64,000 nt of DNA, taken from NCBI RefSeq assembly GCF_009914755.1, contig NC_060929.1; one strand, 5' to 3'. Within the stretch, counting starts at the first letter, position 1, and every line of letters starts with the position of its first letter. Source of the DNA: the human T2T-CHM13v2.0 reference genome, Homo sapiens. A program made the position numbers and the translations under genes. This document shows positions 10,349-30,759 of this stretch, in pieces. The notes beneath the pieces are model-generated. The model ran no database searches, was not told the DNA's origin, and worked only from the letters and a program-made list of their open reading frames with translations.

Positions 10349-11029
10349 ATCCCAAGTCAGCAGACTTATATCAACCCAGAGGGGAAACCAAACCTTAGAA
10401 GTCCAGAATGAAATAAATACATTAAGAATGAAACACAGATAAATGAAAGAATTATTTTCCCTTGAAAGATTATTGCACTCTTCAGAGAAGCTTTAAAGAG
10501 TTTTCATAGATGGGATTGTTTCAATAGTCACATTACAAAATGTAAAACAAAGTTTTCACAGATCAAGTTGAAGGAATATGTTTGGATAAAAGTAAAAGTG
10601 TGCTGTAATGCGATCATAAAATGGAACTAAGTCTGCCTGATCATTGGAATTGTTCTCTTTATGCCACTGAGTCTTAGAGTTGGAGCTTGTGCTTGGCCTG
10701 TTTCTGTAACGTATGAGGGAAGGAAACCATTTGAGATTTTTAACTACTCTTTTGTAATGTAAAGTGAATGAATTCTTCTATACTTCAAATTGAGAGAATC
10801 TGATTTCTTATTTTTTCTTTTTTTAAAATTATACTTTAAGTTCTGGGGCACATGTGCAGAATGTACAGGTTTGTTAAATAGGTATACATGTGCCATGGTG
10901 GTTTACTGCACCATCAACTCATCATCTACATTAGATATTTCTCATAATGCTATACTTCCCCCAGCCCCCACCCCCTGACAGGCCCCAGTGTGTGATGTTC
11001 CCCTCCCTGTGTCCATGTGTTCTCATTGT

Positions 11030-14861
<3,832 letters not shown>

Positions 14862-14924
14862 TATGATATTAGCTGGTTATTTTGCCCCTTAGTTGATGAA
14901 GTTTCTTCATAGTGTCAATGGTCT

Positions 14925-15950
14925 TTACAATTTGGTATGTTTTTGTAGTGGTTGGTACTGGTTATTCTTTTCCATGTTTAGTGCTTCCTTCAGGAGCTCC
15001 TGTAAGGCAGGTCTGGTGGTGACAAAATCTCTCAGCATTTGCTTGTCTGTAAAGGATTTTATTTCTCCTTCGTTTATGAAACTTAGTTTGGCTGCATATG
15101 AAATTCTGGTTTGAAAATTCTTTTCTGTAAGAATGTTGAATACTGGCCCCCCATCTCTTCTGGCTTGTAGAGTTTCTGCTGAGAGATCCGCTGTTAGTCT
15201 GATGGGCATTCCTTTGTGGGTAACCTGACCTTTCTCTCTGGCTGCCCTTAACATTTTTTCCTTCATTTCAACCTTGGTGAATCTGACGATTATGTGTCAT
15301 GGGGTTGCTCTTCTTGAGGAACATCTTTGTGGTGTTCTCTGTATTTCCTGAATTTGAATGTTGGCCTGCCTTGCTAGGTTGGGTAAGTTCTCCTGGAAAA
15401 TATCCAGAACAGTGTTTTCTGACTTGGTTCCATTATCCCTGTCACTTTCAGGTACACCAATCAAATGTAGATTTGGTCTTTTCACATAGTCTCCTATTTC
15501 TTGGAGGCTTTGTTCATTTCCTTTCACTCTTTTTTCTCTAATCTTGTCTTCTCACTTTATTTCATTGAAATGATCTTCAATCTCTGATATCCTTTCTTCT
15601 GCTTGATTGATTTGGCTACTGATATTTGTATATGCTTCATGAAGTTCTCATGCTGTTTTCTTCAGCTCCATCAAGTCATTTATGTTCTTCTCTAAACTGG
15701 ATATTCTAGTTAGCAATTCGTCTAACCTTTTTTCAAGGTTCTTAGCTTCCTTGCATTGGGTTAGAACATGCTCCTTTAGCTTGGAGGAGTTTGTTATTAC
15801 CCACCTTCTGAAGCCTACTTCTGTCAGTTCATCAAACTCATTCTCCATCCAGTTTTGTTCCCTTGCTGGCGAGGAGCTGTGATCCTTTGGAGGAAAAGAG
15901 GTGTTCTGGTTTTTGGAATTTTCAGCATTTTTGCAATGGTTTCTCCCCAT
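14925..15950 (-). pseudogene. L1 ORF1 (coiled-coil RNA-binding protein), disrupted
   Basis: MGRNHCKNAENSKNQ..., KRPNLHLIGVPE and EKMLRAAREKG...RPALQELLKEAL appear in three separate ORFs. Confidence 0.95.
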
Positions 15951-17939
15951 GTTCGTGGATTTATCTACCTTTGGTCTCTGAAGTCAGTGACCTATGGAGG
16001 GGGTCTCTGAGTAGATGTCCTTTTAGTTGATGTTGGTACTATTCCTTTCTCTTTGTTAGTTTTCCTTCTAACAGTGAAGCCGCTCTGAGGCAGGTCTGCT
16101 GGAATTTGCTGGAGGTCCACTCCAGACCCTGTTTGCCTGGGTATCACCGGCAGAGGCTGCAGATCAGCAAAGATTCCTGCCTGTTCCTCCCTCTGGAAGC
16201 TTCGTCCCAGAGGGACACCTGCCAGATGCCAGCCAGAGCTCTCCTGTATGAGGTATCTGTTGGCCCCTACTGGGAGGTGTCTCCCAGTCAGGATACACAA
16301 GGGTCAGGGACCCACTTGAGGAGGCAGTCTGTCCCTTATCAGAGCTCAAATGCTGTGCTGGGAGAACTGCTGCTCTCTTCAGAGCTGTCAGGCAGGGACA
16401 TTTAAGTCTGCTAAAGCTGTGCCTGTAGCCACCCCTTCCCCCAGGTGATCCGTCCCAGGGAGATGGGGGTTTTATCTATAAGTCCCTGACTGGGGCTGCT
16501 CACTTTTTTTCAGAGATGCCTTGCCCAGCAAGGAGAAATCTAGACATGTGGTTCACCTTGCTGAGCTATGGAGGGCTCCACCTGGTTCAAACTTCCTGGC
16601 AGGCTTGTTTACACTGTGAGGGTAAAAATCACCCATTCAAGCCTCAGCAATGGCGGACGCCCCTCCCCCAACCAAGCTTGAGCATCCCAGGTAGAGCTCA
16701 GACTGCTATGCTAGCAGTGAGAATTTCAAGCCAGTGGATCTTAGCTTGCTGGGCTCCATAGGGGTGGGACCCACCGAGCCAGGTACTGGAGGGAGTCTCC
16801 TGGTCTGCAGGTTGTGAAGACCTTGGGAAAAGGGCAGTATCTGGGCCAGAGTGTTCCGTTCCTCCCAGTACAGTCTCTCACAGCTTCCCTTGGCTAGAGA
16901 AGGGAAATCCCCTGACCCCTTGCACTTCCTGGGTGAAGCAACACCCCACCCTGCTTCGGCTCACCCTCCGTGAGCTGCACCCTGTCCAACCAGTCACAAT
17001 GAGATGAACCAGGTACCTCAGTTGGAAATGCAGAAATCACCCACCTTTTGCATCGATCTTGCTGGGAGCTGCAGACCGGAGCTGATCTATGAAACTAATA
17101 TAAAGTCCACAAACTTGTACACGTAAGGCCAAATTTCTTCTCATTTTCCAGTTTATCACTTTAATACTCATGGGTTTTACAATCAGAAAATGCAGGGCCT
17201 CTATTCTGAGAACACATCACTCTCAAATCTTTCAGAAATTCTGGAACTTACACAGTCTTTTTATATGAGATAAATCACATTTTCCCACCCAAGCAGGGAG
17301 TAGTAGAGAAGACAGAAAGCAATTGCTGTAGATTTTCACTTCCTATAGTTCTTTCTCTAAATAGTTCTCTCTCAATTAATTTATAGATATAGCTATTATT
17401 ACGCAGATGAATATCCAGATTTAAATCCCAATATGTTATAAATGCATTTTTGTGGGTTTTGTGGTCTTTTTATTTTTATTTGTTTAGAAAATCTGCTTTA
17501 ATGGTTAAGCAAAGACTTATCTGAAATTGCAGTAAATGATTATGCATAAGTTTTGGGTTTTATGAGTTAAAATTAATTTGTGACATGGTTGCTTTACATA
17601 TGGAAATTCAGTCTAATCTTTTTCTCATACTTTAAAATCTTATTCTGAAGGCTGGGTTTTATTGTTTTGTAAGTTTTGTAATGGCCTCAAGCCCAAAGCA
17701 CCATAAATTTGAATTGGCATTACCATGCTGATTTATTCAATATTAGAAAGGTAGCTAATTTTTACATGAAAAGTGAAAAGGGAATTTATGCAAGACATTT
17801 ATAACTTCAGATAAAAAAGAAAAATAAATATAAAACTGATAAATAGCGTTATCTAAATGTTTGTTTGAGGCTCTATGATTTATCAGCATATGAGTCTTAA
17901 ATCAGAGCCACAGAGAGAGTGAAGTGTCCAAGTGTTGGC

Positions 17940-18394: not shown

Positions 18395-19024
<630 letters not shown>

Positions 19025-19823
19025 GCATATGTAGTTTTATCAGATATTGCTATATTCTTTCCAATGGGGTTATTGCAGGTTGCATTCCCCCAGCAGACTC
19101 TAAAGGAAGGCAGAATTTTTGAGGTGCCTAAAATATTTATTCAAACTAAGATTGTCAATGAAAGTATTCTGAAACGGACGGAACTGAAGAAAATTTAAAC
19201 ATTTACTCAAAAAAGTAGAAAAAAAGGCATTTGATATGCAATATTCATACTTTAAATGGGAAATAAGCCAATCAGGTAAACTAATGTATAGCAGAACAGA
19301 AACTCACTTTCCATAGCACCAGCCCAATCCCTGTTTTAACCGTGATACCCAATTTTCAAACAGCCACTGGCACTGCCCATGGAGACTGATCTCCATGGAA
19401 CCTGTGTTTGCCTGGCAAGTGCAGACATTCTGAATCCAAGTAGGGATGAATGCCATTTGTTAGCAAGTGCAGTGGGAGGGAGGAAAGGCAACCAGCGCCC
19501 TCAGAGAAACCAGAGTGGGGCAGTTCTTGTTCCTCACAGAACCCCATCTTCTCTCACCACCTCTGTGTAACCTGACCCCCCTCCAATTTTTAACTCTTTT
19601 TAAATTTTTGCCTTTTGCCTCTGAATTTTGCGTTCACCAGTCCTTAAAAATCACAGAGGACCCAGAAGAGATTTTAATGTAGCAACATTTTTTTGGAATG
19701 AAACACTTATAAATTTACTAAATATAAATGTTAAAAAAACTGTTACAGCATATATATATAAACTATTACATCACATATATGTGTGTGTATATATATGTGT
19801 GTGTATATATGTGTATGTGTGTG

Positions 19824-20163
19824 TGGAGGCTTTGTTCATTTCCTTTCACTCTTTTTTCTCTAATCTTGTCTTCTCACTTTATTTCATTGAAATGATCTTC
19901 AATCTCTGATATCCTTTCTTCTGCTTGATTGATTTGGCTACTGATATTTGTATATGCTTCATGAAGTTCTCATGCTGTTTTCTTCAGCTCCATCAAGTCA
20001 TTTATGTTCTTCTCTAAACTGCATTTGAGCTCTGATAAGGGACAGACTGCCTCCTCAAGTGGGTCCCTGACCCTTGTGTATCCTGACTGGGAGACACCTC
20101 CCAGTAGGGGCCAACAGATACCTCATACAGGAGAGCTCTGGCTGGCATCTGGCAGGTGTCCCT
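19824..20163. other. Bipartite templated insertion copied from the adjacent L1 (198-bp direct + 143-bp inverted segment)
   Basis: 19824-20021 matches 15502-15699 on the same strand. 20021-20163 matches the reverse complement of 16211-16353. I saw no mismatches by eye. Flanked by (TG)n on the left and (CA)n on the right. Confidence 0.93.
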
Positions 20164-21103
20164 ACACACACACACATATATAACATTTTCAATTGCTTAG
20201 ATACTGTTTTCCTAACTTTACTACCTTTTAGGTATAAAAACAGCTTTACAGAACAGCCTTCCTTCTGAAGAGACAACCATTATTAGGTTAGGTACTTAAG
20301 TCCATATTACAGCTTCATATTGTCTCCCTTTCTATGTCACACTCAACTCTGTCCCAAATACTAAAAAAAGAGGTGAGAAATTCTTAGCATCCTGGTAGTG
20401 ATTTACACGTATCATATATCTTTAGTATTGTCAATCTAGGGTTTTTAGCACCCAATTTATGGGGGCAGGGGTTAAGGAGGAGGCCAGTGGGGTGAAAGTC
20501 CGTGAGTTAATATAATGAGGAAGAGCTCGCAAAAGAGATGAGCATTTATGAGTGACATAAATCTCTGAAGTTTAAGAACAGCACTTAGCATACTAAACTG
20601 TCCAAATAGTCCTTGAATGCTGACAAACGGTTCGTAAAAAGTTAAAAAAAAAAAAAAAGACATACATTCTTCAGAGCTATTTTTTCAATACCTGAAAAAA
20701 ATCCTGTAATCCCATATTGGTTTGTGATACATGTTATCATTCCTTTATGGAGTTTTCAACTCAAGGTCAGAAGGTTCTTGAGTCATTCCTCTTTGGTGCA
20801 GATAAGTTGTATTTTACGTTCTACTGCAGTTCTCTGCCATTCTTCTTGACTTCCAAATCTCAAGCTTAGAACATTTCTTATGAAATCTATGACTTCCATT
20901 AATATCAAACCTGTTTCCCTTTTGTGTAAATTAATATATTACCATTCAATTATATTTAAGTTTACCAAACATTTCTCAAAATTATCTCATTCTCTTTAAA
21001 AGATAATCCAAAACTTGGTCCTCAATTAGTTTCTTCCATTGTAAACCAATCTTTCCTTTCTGAACTGGCTTGCTTAACTGATTGTATGCTTACTTTTTGA
21101 TTC

Positions 21104-28093: not shown

Positions 28094-28446
<353 letters not shown>

Positions 28447-29967
28447 TACATGTTATTTTTAATAGAAGAGAAATAGTGTAAATATTTAATGAGACATATT
28501 TTAAAGGATATTGTTTCATTGAAAAAAATGATTATTTTAAATTAGGGTAGAACATTCAATACACTTTATTTTAAATGCAGATTTCCTTCTCCAAACTCTA
28601 TTTCTTCCAATAAGATCAAGTATATTAAGTCATATATCCAGTCAGCAAGTTGGTCATGGCACAGTTAGTACATGTACTGTGCCTCCCACCTTCTTAATTC
28701 CTAACATGAGTGTGAATGAGTTTGAAGTTTGAATGCTGTAGTGCTTTTTTACTATAGTACTCTGTTAGGTGATCTGGTGATTGTTCCTATAGTTGCTATG
28801 TGCTTGGTCAACCACTTTGCTAAGTCATCTCAGCTGTACTACTCGAGGATTTTATGCAAATCAGCTCCTTCTTCAACTGCCTTAAAACAGGAAGCTTTTC
28901 TCTATTTCTGAAACTCCTTGAACTTCCTTCCTTAGAATACTTCCCACTATAGTCAAACAAGTAGGAACAAAGAGAATGGTCCAATCCTTCTTCCCTCTAC
29001 CTGATAATATAGTAATCATTGCCGTGAAATCATTAGGCTGATGCTTCACAGCTTATAACCTTCATCTTATTCATAGTGCAACCTAATAAAAGGGCTATTT
29101 TGTCATCTAAAACAGTGTAGTATCTTCAATTCCTCATAGTTTAGTATAAGTGCATTGTTACTTTAGAAAGTAGATTACCACAAAAAGAAAAACAGTACTA
29201 TGTTGACCCTAAGACATTTTCTTTGTCCATACCTAGAGTTACAAGTTCACATGAGGGGCAGCAGATGAAGTGTATGTGTGAAGGTGCTGGGCATAAGAGC
29301 TAAGGGAGTCTTGGAGAAAAAGGTGAACACATATTCAGTCAAAACTTGTCCAATGTCTTTAAAAATGAAAGCAAAGTGTCAGCCATCATATTAACCTACA
29401 GGTAGTTCACAATCTCACCTCTCATGAATTCCTTACAACAAATACATAATTACTTGAGCTTTCTGGTTATTTGAGTGCCAGGTAATATTTGATTGTATGT
29501 GAACTAGGATCATAATGGTCTACTAGTTACTACAACATAGATTTAGGGATTGGGATATAACAATTCATTCAAGTAAAACAAATTCTTCTAACAATGGCTT
29601 ACTTTTCCAAACATAAGGATTATATTATTAAACTCAACCTTTTACTCTCTTAATATGGAAACTCTAAAGACTTTGCATATATCCACTGAAAATTCTTTAA
29701 GTTAAATTCCATCAACAAATCATTCAGATGCTAACCCAATCCTACTACTACGAATTGCAATTTAATGAATACTTGCAATATTATTGATCTCTACAAAGAG
29801 TATCTCAGGTAATTCCCTCACAGTAAACCTATGTGAGAATTATTTCCCAGTCTAGAGGTGAGGAAATGAAGACCAGAAGTTGTTTATCCTTAATCTTTAC
29901 ATTCCCTAAGAATAAGTCCCCTTAGCATTCAAATCTATCACATAAATAAGCGTAAAGATTCAAGGAA

Positions 29968-30272
29968 GGCCTGGCACAGTGGCTTATGCCAGTAATCCCA
30001 GCACTTTGGGAGGCCAAGGCAGGCCAATAGCTTTGAGCTCAGGAATTCAAGACCAGCCTGGGCAACATGGCGAAACCCCATCTCTACAAAAAATATAAAA
30101 ATTAGCTGGGTATGGTGACATGTGCCTGTAGTCCCAGATACTCAGGAGGCAGAGGCTGGAGGACTGCTTGAGCTCAGGAAGTGGAGGGTGCAGTGAACCA
30201 AGATCGTGCCACTGCATACCAGCCTGGGTGACAAAGTGAGACCATGTCTCAGAAAAAAAAAAAGAAAGAAAA
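29968..30272 (+). mobile_element. AluJ-type element
   Basis: 'ttgagctcaggaattcaagaccagcctgggcaacatggcgaaacc' and 'ggaggactgcttgagc'. Confidence 0.9.
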
Positions 30273-30759
30273 AATATATATTTAAGGAAAAACTCATGTG
30301 AAGCACTGCACTTTGGAAAATTCTATAGTACAAAAGAGGAGGCCATGGGTAACTCTGTGAGGCATTACAAGAGCCCTGCCAATGCCAGGCCACTCCATTT
30401 GCTATTAGCCATAACTGACCTTAATTTTCAGTCTTGTCCAGCAGCACTAGGAAGGCAATCAATCTTTTGTCAGAGTGAACTTTTTAGGGAAGACATGTGC
30501 TATTCAATTGTATAATAACAATGATAATACTATTTCTAGTGAATAAATTATATTTGTTTTTTATATTTGCCACATTCAAAGACCTCTCCCAGAAGTATGT
30601 GTGAGCTCCAAAAAGGGGTTCTCAGTAGTCACTACCTTAGGCTCCACATCAAAGTATAGGTCTTGCTGATGAATAGTAGAAGGAGAAGAAATGTAATAAA
30701 TTTCTAAATGTGAGCATGTTAAAATATTTAACAATATACTTTATTAATGGAAGTAATGC

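What the first reader, a model, noticed from the sequence alone, without database searches (positions are those of the whole stretch)
19824..20163. Two-piece templated insertion: a palindromic microsatellite patched with direct and inverted copies of the neighbouring L1
Seen in sequence: 19824-20021 (198 bp) copies 15502-15699 (L1 ORF1) in the same orientation. 20021-20163 (143 bp) copies 16211-16353 (L1 5'UTR) in reverse complement. I found no mismatch in either piece by eye. The donor is an old, heavily mutated L1PA7-like copy, so identity implies recent copying from this locus rather than an independent retrotransposition. There is no poly(A) and no TSD. The middle junction shares one base (G), and the left junction overlaps the (TG)n tract by 1-2 bases. 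The patch sits between '...atatatgtgtatgtgtgtgt' and 'acacacacacacatatat', the centre of a hairpin/cruciform-capable repeat. Established knowledge: multi-segment local templated insertions with orientation switches and microhomology are typical of template-switching repair (FoSTeS/MMBIR, or polymerase-theta end joining for shorter patches). Inference: a break at the fragile repeat was repaired by two successive invasions 3.7-4.3 kb upstream. An automated annotator would probably label these pieces as unrelated L1 fragments.
Basis: partly seen in the sequence, partly recalled or inferred. Interest (0 to 1): 0.8.

Follow-up and report, generated by a model that had tools for sequence, protein, structure and literature searches.

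The report
Break patched with copies of neighbouring L1
A 340-base patch in an intron of human CTNND2 consists of two exact copies, one flipped, of an old L1 repeat a few kilobases away; it is a tidy but ordinary scar of DNA break repair.

Summary
Window 19824-20021 equals 15502-15699 (198/198, same orientation). Window 20021-20163 equals the reverse complement of 16211-16353 (143/143). The two pieces share one G.

The donor is a full-length, decayed L1 on the minus strand, about 10811-17087. Its ORF1 and 5'UTR supply the two pieces.

In the window's own genome only this L1 matches at 100%. The next best matches are 94% and 97%, and the chimeric junction is unique.

The patch has no poly(A) and no target-site duplication. 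Junction overlaps are at most 2, 1 and 0-1 nt. It sits at the centre of a 19-bp-arm (AT)n(GT)n/(AC)n(AT)n inverted repeat.

It is therefore a local templated insertion made during break or fork repair, not an independent retrotransposition.

The sequence cannot separate four routes:
- serial template switching (MMBIR/FoSTeS);
- synthesis from both ends followed by end joining;
- copying of a nascent CTNND2/L1-sense transcript;
- capture of free fragments.

Zero differences in 340 bp bound its age only to under about 9 Myr. No empty allele could be examined. This is a new member of a known kind, of modest interest.

The parts
19824..20021 (-). Patch piece 1 (198 bp). It copies the L1 ORF1 coiled-coil/trimerisation region in the same orientation as the donor, so L1 sense lies on the minus strand.
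   Evidence: 198/198 identical to 15502-15699. Only two 100% places exist in the genome, this one and the donor.
20021..20163 (+). Patch piece 2 (143 bp). It copies part of the L1 5'UTR and is inverted relative to the donor, so L1 sense lies on the plus strand. It shares the G at 20021 with piece 1.
   Evidence: 143/143 identical to the reverse complement of 16211-16353. Only two 100% places exist in the genome.
15502..15699 (-). Donor 1, inside ORF1 of the neighbouring L1.
   Evidence: The minus-strand translation of 15300-15551 hits Transposase_22 (E 4.2e-30) and Tnp_22_trimer (E 5.6e-08). The donor is still in place.
16211..16353 (-). Donor 2, in the L1 5'UTR, upstream of ORF1.
   Evidence: It lies above the last ORF1-type open frame (15648-15983, minus strand). 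Translations of 15995-16303 and 16167-16475 match no Pfam family. L1 homology continues to 17087.
10811..17087 (-). Full-length, decayed L1, about 6.3 kb. It is in the same orientation as CTNND2, and its 5' end lies 2.7 kb from the patch.
   Evidence: The T-rich 3' end is seen at about 10811-10826. Homology to other L1 copies ends at 17087 in 5 of 13 copies. ORF1 domains lie on the minus strand, and the endonuclease and reverse-transcriptase matches fall below the Pfam cut-offs. The frames are broken.
19775..19825 (.). Left flank: compound microsatellite (TATATATGTGTGTG)~3 ending in (TG)5. Its last 19-22 nt form the left arm of the inverted repeat.
   Evidence: TRF rows of period 14, 16 and 2. 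Arms.
20164..20182 (.). Right flank: (AC)6A(TA)3. This is the right arm, an inverted copy of one unit of the left microsatellite.
   Evidence: It is reverse-complementary to 19804-19822 with one mismatch. The longest exact inverted match to the left array is 15 nt.

Best explanation
A single repair event at a double-strand break or collapsed fork at the centre of a short palindromic dinucleotide repeat was filled by DNA synthesis. The synthesis used the neighbouring L1 DNA as template. One stretch came from ORF1 (4.3 kb away, same orientation) and one from the 5'UTR (3.7 kb away, inverted). The joints carry 0-2 nt of overlap.

Shown: the pieces are exact copies of this L1, the donor is intact, and the hallmarks of retrotransposition are absent.

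Inferred: the template was DNA, and the route was one of two.
(a) One 3' end switched templates twice, as in MMBIR/FoSTeS.
(b) Each of the two 3' ends, both ending in (TG)n because of the palindrome, invaded the L1 separately. Both copied the same donor strand, and the two new strands were joined at a 1-nt overlap.

The patch now separates the two arms by 340 bp, which should make hairpin formation harder.
For: - Exact identity of 198/198 and 143/143.
- The local L1 is the only 100% match. 40 of 3263 and 40 of 2828 candidates were scored, and the next best were 94% and 97%. 60-nt sub-queries give the same picture, with next best 93% and 98%.
- The patch carries the 5 + 1 sites at which the donor differs from all 13 or 12 other copies compared.
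- The junction-spanning query is matched in full only by itself.
- The donor L1 aligns without a gap across both donor stretches to other copies, so it was copied rather than excised.
- There is no poly(A) and no target-site duplication.
- The site is the centre of an inverted repeat.
- A template within a few kb and a change of orientation are the known pattern of replicative template switching (PMC8421209, passages; FoSTeS/MMBIR literature, recalled).
- Sen et al. reasoned that SDSA-type copying would be expected to draw mostly on old L1 copies (PMC1920257, passage). An old copy is what was used here.
Against: - The junction overlaps (at most 2, 1 and 0-1 nt) are short for MMBIR. There, 80% of junctions had 2-12 nt, with a mean of 3.7.
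- No base substitutions lie in or next to the patch, although error-prone synthesis is often reported for MMBIR (recalled).
- Nothing in the sequence distinguishes a DNA template from an RNA template.
- No empty allele was seen. The break position, any target deletion and the prior existence of the palindrome are all inferred.
Confidence: 0.6

Rival explanations
1. The template was RNA. The break was patched by reverse transcription of a local transcript that contains the L1 in sense, either nascent CTNND2 pre-mRNA or L1 read-through RNA. Each of the two (TG)n 3' ends primed on the same RNA molecule, as in twin priming but without L1 endonuclease, and the two cDNAs were joined at one base. This would be a local version of class 2 templated sequence insertions or of endonuclease-independent L1 insertion.
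For: - Geometry read from the sequence: the left 3' end is extended by donor plus-strand 15502 to 15699, and the right (minus-strand) 3' end by donor plus-strand 16211 to 16353.
- Both pieces are therefore complements of one minus-sense template. That is the polarity of both CTNND2 (hub annotation) and the L1.
- Orientation-blind models give this arrangement about 1 time in 4 (my estimate).
- All four formal criteria of Sen et al. for non-classical L1 insertion are met: 3' truncation, no target-site duplication, no poly(A), and a site unlike the endonuclease consensus (PMC1920257, passages).
- The class 2 features described in PMC5110952 (passages) also fit.
- Short overlaps suit end joining.
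Against: - Described class 2 insertions come from distant loci, and non-classical L1 insertions from young L1s under 2% from consensus. Here the source is an old copy 4 kb away, so only a tethered nascent RNA would explain the proximity.
- CTNND2 is mainly a neural gene (recalled), so its transcription in the germline is doubtful.
- Only 2 of 21 non-classical insertions had internal rearrangements.
- The sequence carries no RNA-specific mark, such as splicing, editing or a tail.
Confidence: 0.2
2. The event was fragment capture. Two free double-stranded DNA fragments were released from the L1 region, for example during fork breakdown, and were ligated into the break by non-homologous end joining.
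For: - The overlaps of 0-2 nt are typical of end joining.
- Capture of DNA fragments at breaks is documented (PMC5110952, passages).
- The piece sizes of 198 and 143 bp are in the nucleosome or Okazaki-fragment range (recalled).
Against: - The donor is intact, so the fragments would have to come from a sister chromatid or from over-replicated DNA.
- Two fragments from the same 850-bp stretch of one nearby element landing together needs a special local source.
- There are no filler bases.
Confidence: 0.1
3. The patch is an independent, older L1 insertion with a 5' inversion (twin priming), later made identical to the neighbour by gene conversion, or identical to it by chance.
For: The topology, with the upstream segment inverted and the downstream segment direct, is that of twin priming (named in PMC1920257).
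Against: - There is no poly(A), no target-site duplication and no endonuclease site. The direct piece ends in ORF1, about 4.7 kb short of the L1 3' end.
- Identity runs to the very edges of both pieces, with no diverged L1 margins to seed conversion.
- The best non-local copies are 94% and 97%.
Confidence: 0.02
4. The patch is an assembly artefact of the T2T-CHM13 sequence.
For: None from the sequence. The patch lies in a low-complexity, hairpin-prone stretch where reads can misbehave.
Against: - The junctions are clean, the flanks are unique, and the architecture is biologically typical.
- The assembly is regarded as highly accurate (recalled).
- Raw reads could not be examined.
Confidence: 0.03

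Closest known systems
MMBIR/FoSTeS templated insertions (MMB-TI; complex insertions with dispersed and inverted dispersed duplication)
   Same: The inserted DNA is copied from nearby sequence and the donor is kept. There are several pieces, a change of orientation, short overlaps at the joints, and a site prone to secondary structure.
   Different: The templates lie 3.7-4.3 kb away, whereas the MMBSearch definition requires 100 bp or less. The overlaps are at the low end. No larger rearrangement is attached.
Class 2 templated sequence insertion polymorphisms (Onozawa and Aplan)
   Same: There is no target-site duplication and no poly(A), the joints are of end-joining type, and the patch is a few hundred bp at a presumed break.
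   Different: Those come from distant, often other-chromosome, transcribed regions through RNA. Here the source is 4 kb away, and an RNA step is not shown. Polymorphism was not tested.
Endonuclease-independent (non-classical) L1 insertion, NCLI (Sen et al. 2007; Morrish et al. 2002)
   Same: L1 sequence sits at a break, is 3'-truncated, and has no target-site duplication, no poly(A) and no endonuclease site.
   Different: NCLI uses RNA of young, active L1s and lands anywhere in the genome. Here the sequence carries the private mutations of a dead neighbouring copy.
Twin-priming 5'-inverted L1 insertions
   Same: The upstream L1 segment is inverted, the downstream segment is direct, and the two are joined at a tiny overlap.
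   Different: There is no poly(A), target-site duplication or TTTT/A site. 511 nt of the donor are skipped between the pieces, and the 3' end lies in ORF1.
Centre-break revision of palindromes, and breakage at palindromic AT-rich repeats (PATRR)
   Same: The change lies at the symmetry centre of an inverted repeat and turns an unspaced repeat into a spaced one (concept in PMC3300023, passages).
   Different: The arms are only about 19 bp, against hundreds of bp in the studied cases. It is unknown whether the palindrome preceded the event.

Membership tests
MMBIR/FoSTeS-type templated insertion | The insert is copied from nearby genomic sequence, and the donor remains in place. | tested here: met
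MMBIR/FoSTeS-type templated insertion | There is at least one template switch, often with a change of strand. | tested here: met
   One direct piece plus one inverted piece.
MMBIR/FoSTeS-type templated insertion | Microhomology at the junctions, typically 2-12 nt. | tested here: inconclusive
   At most 2, 1 (3 of 4 with a mismatch) and 0-1 nt, compared. The outer two cannot be fixed without the empty allele.
MMBIR/FoSTeS-type templated insertion | An allele without the insertion exists or existed. | not testable with these tools
   No other human or ape assembly is held. Scans of other collections found nothing.
Canonical L1 retrotransposition (TPRT, including twin priming) | A poly(A) tail at an intact 3' end. 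| tested here: not met
   The direct piece ends in ORF1.
Canonical L1 retrotransposition (TPRT, including twin priming) | A target-site duplication and a TTTT/A-like cleavage site. | tested here: not met
   The flanks are (TG)n and (AC)n, inverted rather than direct.
Non-classical (endonuclease-independent) L1 insertion | 3' truncation, no target-site duplication, no poly(A), and a non-consensus site. | tested here: met
   Criteria from PMC1920257.
Non-classical (endonuclease-independent) L1 insertion | Derived from a young, active L1 RNA (under 2% from subfamily consensus in the defining screen). | tested here: not met
   By proxy only. The patch is identical to an old local copy and only 94% and 97% identical to the best other copies. 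No consensus library was available.
Class 2 templated sequence insertion polymorphism | No target-site duplication or poly(A), and end-joining-type junctions. | tested here: met
   Definition.
Class 2 templated sequence insertion polymorphism | The template lies in a distant genomic region and is copied through RNA. | tested here: not met
   The distance is 3.7-4.3 kb on the same strand of the same intron. The RNA step is not testable.
Class 2 templated sequence insertion polymorphism | Polymorphic among humans. | not testable with these tools
   Only one human assembly is held.
Non-allelic gene conversion between L1 copies | The identical tract is embedded in longer, diverged homology at the acceptor. 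| tested here: not met
   Identity stops exactly at the microsatellite and at the internal junction.

The most novel reading that the evidence does not exclude
The patch is a germline scar of transcript-templated break repair in cis. Both (TG)n 3' ends of a break at the hairpin tip primed on the same nascent CTNND2 pre-mRNA, which carries the L1 in sense and is tethered a few kb away. Each end was extended by a cellular or L1 reverse transcriptase, and the two cDNAs were joined. This would be twin priming without endonuclease, poly(A) or an active L1.

A sub-variant is that the right (AC)n(AT)n arm is itself a third, snap-back templated piece made in the same event. In that case the palindrome would be a product of the repair, not its cause.
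Probability: 0.18. Interest if true: 0.6.

Novelty: new member of a known kind. Interest (0 to 1): 0.3.

Why it matters
This is a clean example, resolved to the base, of a multi-piece local templated insertion in a complete human assembly. Repeat annotation would list it as two unrelated old L1 fragments.

Such cases are useful for calibrating searches for template-switch scars in T2T and pangenome assemblies. The polarity argument made here also gives a concrete genome-wide test of RNA against DNA templates: do both pieces read as copies of the transcribed strand?

The event itself lies deep in a CTNND2 intron. It touches no exon or annotated element and is most likely neutral.

Tried and rejected
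- **Search for an empty allele or another haplotype:** a unique 36-nt right-flank word found nothing in genome contigs or viral contigs. No primate or second human assembly is held. The empty site, the age and any polymorphism therefore stay untested.
- **Paralogue search:** the right flank (518 nt) is single-copy.
- **Smaller templated pieces within 9-31 kb:** at a 22-nt threshold the search found only old Alu-like and L1 matches, chance AT-rich words, and the flanking inverted repeat.
- **Bacterial promoter/terminator scan:** run on the patch. It is irrelevant to a human intron and was ignored.
- **Gene conversion and independent retrotransposition:** rejected, because identity stops exactly at the junctions and the hallmarks are absent.
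- **Polymerase-theta templated insertion as the sole route:** considered unlikely, because known patches are tens of bases from flanks within about 100 bp (recalled). A role for it in the final joining is not excluded.

Full report
**1. The observation**

The window is T2T-CHM13 chr5:11,594,001-11,658,000 (hub note; confirmed). Reading 19600-20400 and comparing it base by base with the upstream region gives two exact matches.
- 19824-20021 is identical to 15502-15699 (198 of 198) in the same orientation.
- 20021-20163 is identical to the reverse complement of 16211-16353 (143 of 143).

The repeat finder and a self-BLAST of the window report the same pairs as 201 nt and 146 nt with one mismatch each. 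Both run three to four bases beyond the true junction.

The two pieces share the G at 20021. The bases around it (ACTG in the patch, ACAG in the inverted donor) match at 3 of 4.

At the left edge, the TG of the donor's TGGAGG can equally be the end of the (TG)n tract, so the overlap is at most 2 nt. At the right edge, the patch ends in ...CCCT and the flank begins ACAC, so the overlap is 0-1 nt.

Inside or beside the patch there is no A or T run of six or more, except a T6 at 19852. That run lies within the copied stretch and is therefore also in the donor. The longest direct word shared by the two flanks is TATATA, and it is not at the junctions. There is thus no poly(A) and no target-site duplication.

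Of 473 self-BLAST HSPs in the window, these two pairs are the only non-self matches of 95% or more over 50 bp or more.

**2. The donor**

Minus-strand translations give clear L1 ORF1 domains:
- Transposase_22 (E 4.2e-30) and Tnp_22_trimer (E 5.6e-08) in 15300-15551;
- Tnp_22_dsRBD (E 1.4e-38) in 14928-15296.

Further down, the endonuclease and reverse-transcriptase matches fall below the Pfam cut-offs. The piece 15651-15983 gives only coiled-coil-like hits below cut-off. The two pieces above 15995 match nothing.

So 15502-15699 lies in the ORF1 coiled-coil/trimerisation region, and 16211-16353 lies upstream of ORF1, in the 5'UTR.

BLAST against 13 other L1 copies fetched from the same genome shows L1 homology running to 17087 in 5 of the 13, at 78-88% identity. 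The T-rich 3' end is at about 10811-10826.

The element is therefore a full-length L1 of about 6.3 kb on the minus strand, the same strand as CTNND2 (hub note). Its frames are broken into pieces of 50-198 aa. Old and decayed is shown. The subfamily name L1PA7 was not testable.

Both donor stretches are still present, and the L1 aligns through them without a gap. The sequence was copied, not moved.

**3. Is this L1 the source?**

Searches of the whole assembly gave the following results.

| Query | Candidates scored | Places at 100% | Next best |
|---|---|---|---|
| 198-nt piece | 40 of 3263 | 2 (patch and donor) | 94%, the rest 90-93% |
| 143-nt piece | 40 of 2828 | 2 | 97% over 140 nt, the rest 90-95% |
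| 60-nt sub-query, direct piece | 40 of 1393 | 2 | 93% |
| 60-nt sub-query, inverted piece | 40 of 1765 | 2 | 98% |

The 60-nt sub-queries were centred on donor-specific sites.

A 161-nt query across the internal junction is matched in full only by itself. All other scored hits cover one side only (40 of 2953 candidates scored).

Only the best candidates are scored, so an unscored exact copy cannot be formally excluded. However, in every search the two local places ranked first.

In a column-by-column comparison, the donor differs from all 13 other copies at 5 columns of the direct piece and from all 12 at 1 column of the inverted piece. The patch shares all six. Those comparison copies were the best hits, so they are a sample biased toward similarity.

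The right flank (518 nt) is single-copy.

**4. Age**

Neither piece contains a CpG. There are zero differences in 340 bp. Assuming a rate of 0.5e-9 per bp per year (recalled), the 95% upper bound is 8.8 Myr and the median is about 2 Myr.

'Recent' is therefore relative. The event could be private to CHM13, polymorphic, human-specific, or shared with chimpanzee.

**5. The site**

The left flank is a compound microsatellite, (TATATATGTGTGTG) about three times, ending in (TG)5. The right flank is (AC)6A(TA)3, which is an inverted copy of one such unit.

The arms 19804-19827 and 20159-20182 are 24 nt and 88% complementary. Three of these pairs, GGA and TCC, lie inside the patch.

Joining the flanks in a script gives a hairpin with a 19-bp stem, one mismatch and a 3-nt loop, at about -19 to -21 kcal/mol with DNA parameters. 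The patch sits at the loop, within 3 nt of the symmetry centre.

Whether this palindrome existed before the event is not known. The longest exact inverted match of the right arm to the left array is 15 nt. The arm could therefore be a third, snap-back templated piece made in the same event.

**6. Mechanism**

Canonical retrotransposition is excluded. There is no tail, no duplication and no TTTT/A site, and the direct piece ends in ORF1, about 4.7 kb short of the L1 3' end.

Gene conversion is excluded, because identity stops exactly at the microsatellite and at the internal junction, with no diverged L1 margins.

A diffusible L1 RNP landing within 5 kb of its own dead source by chance would be about a 1-in-300,000 event (10 kb out of 3.1 Gb; my arithmetic). 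The template must therefore have been physically local. Several routes give the same product.

(b) A two-ended route. Because of the palindrome, both 3' ends of a central break end in (TG)n.
- The left end is extended by donor plus-strand 15502 to 15699.
- The right (minus-strand) end is extended by donor plus-strand 16211 to 16353.
- Both copy the same template polarity, and the two new 3' ends meet at a single G:C pair.

(c) The same two-ended route, but on RNA. That template polarity is the sense of CTNND2 pre-mRNA and of the L1 itself. This is twin-priming geometry without endonuclease.

(d) Ligation of two free fragments.

The overlaps (at most 2, 1 and 0-1 nt) are short compared with the 2-12 nt (mean 3.7) reported for MMBIR-type insertions (PMC8421209, passages). 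They fit an end-joining finish.

The patch meets the four formal criteria for non-classical L1 insertion: 3' truncation, no target-site duplication, no poly(A), and a non-consensus site (PMC1920257, passages). That class, however, is defined on young L1s. The same paper argues that SDSA-type copying would mostly use old L1 copies, and an old copy is what was used here.

Class 2 templated insertions share the junction features but come from distant loci through RNA (PMC5110952, passages). A long-read study of 11 genomes found 15 templated-insertion candidates among 8004 insertions, so such events are rare but known (PMC8082928, passages).

My estimates are:

| Route | Probability |
|---|---|
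| DNA-templated local synthesis, (a) or (b) | 0.6 |
| Nascent-RNA template | 0.2 |
| Fragment capture | 0.1 |
| Artefact | 0.03 |
| Independent insertion plus conversion | 0.02 |
| Remainder, unassigned | 0.05 |

The RNA reading gains about a fourfold likelihood from the orientation and polarity. It starts from a low prior, and it needs CTNND2, a mainly neural gene (recalled), to be transcribed in the germline.

**7. Comparison and novelty**

The event works like a template-switch or break-repair templated insertion. In structural-variant terms it would be a small complex insertion made of a dispersed and an inverted dispersed duplication (class names recalled).

It is not a member of canonical L1 insertions, young-L1 non-classical insertions, distant class 2 insertions or gene conversion, because a defining feature fails for each (see the membership table).

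Inverted repeats as break or stall sites, and the stabilising effect of a spacer, are established (PMC3300023, passages). Short-range template switching in apes is documented (PMC7954356, abstract only).

The finding is a new member of a known kind. It is neat, correctly read by the first stage, probably neutral, and of modest interest.

What remains open because no other assembly could be reached:
- the empty allele;
- whether the palindrome came first;
- any target-site loss;
- the age;
- whether the patch is polymorphic.

Noticed in passing
window 14662-14705: A perfect tandem duplication of a 22-nt unit (two identical copies) lies inside the ORF2 side of the same old L1. It is probably a young slippage or duplication event (family D14).
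   Followed up: no
window about 16782: Alignments of 7 of the 13 other L1 copies break here and skip about 168-188 nt of the other copy. The local L1 therefore seems to lack about 170-190 bp of 5'UTR that those copies have.
   Followed up: no
window 18812-19022, 28142-28461, 29953-30285: These are old Alu-like fragments (name recalled from the sequence motif). They are 77-83% alike, and two of them form an inverted pair 1.5-1.8 kb apart at 28.1-30.3 kb.
   Followed up: no
window 19824-19827 and 20159-20162: The flanking inverted repeat extends three pairs (GGA and TCC) into the two L1 pieces. Both copied stretches therefore begin at similar purine-rich donor words (TGGAGG and AGGGAC) next to a (TG)n 3' end. 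This may be chance or a hint about priming preference.
   Followed up: partly
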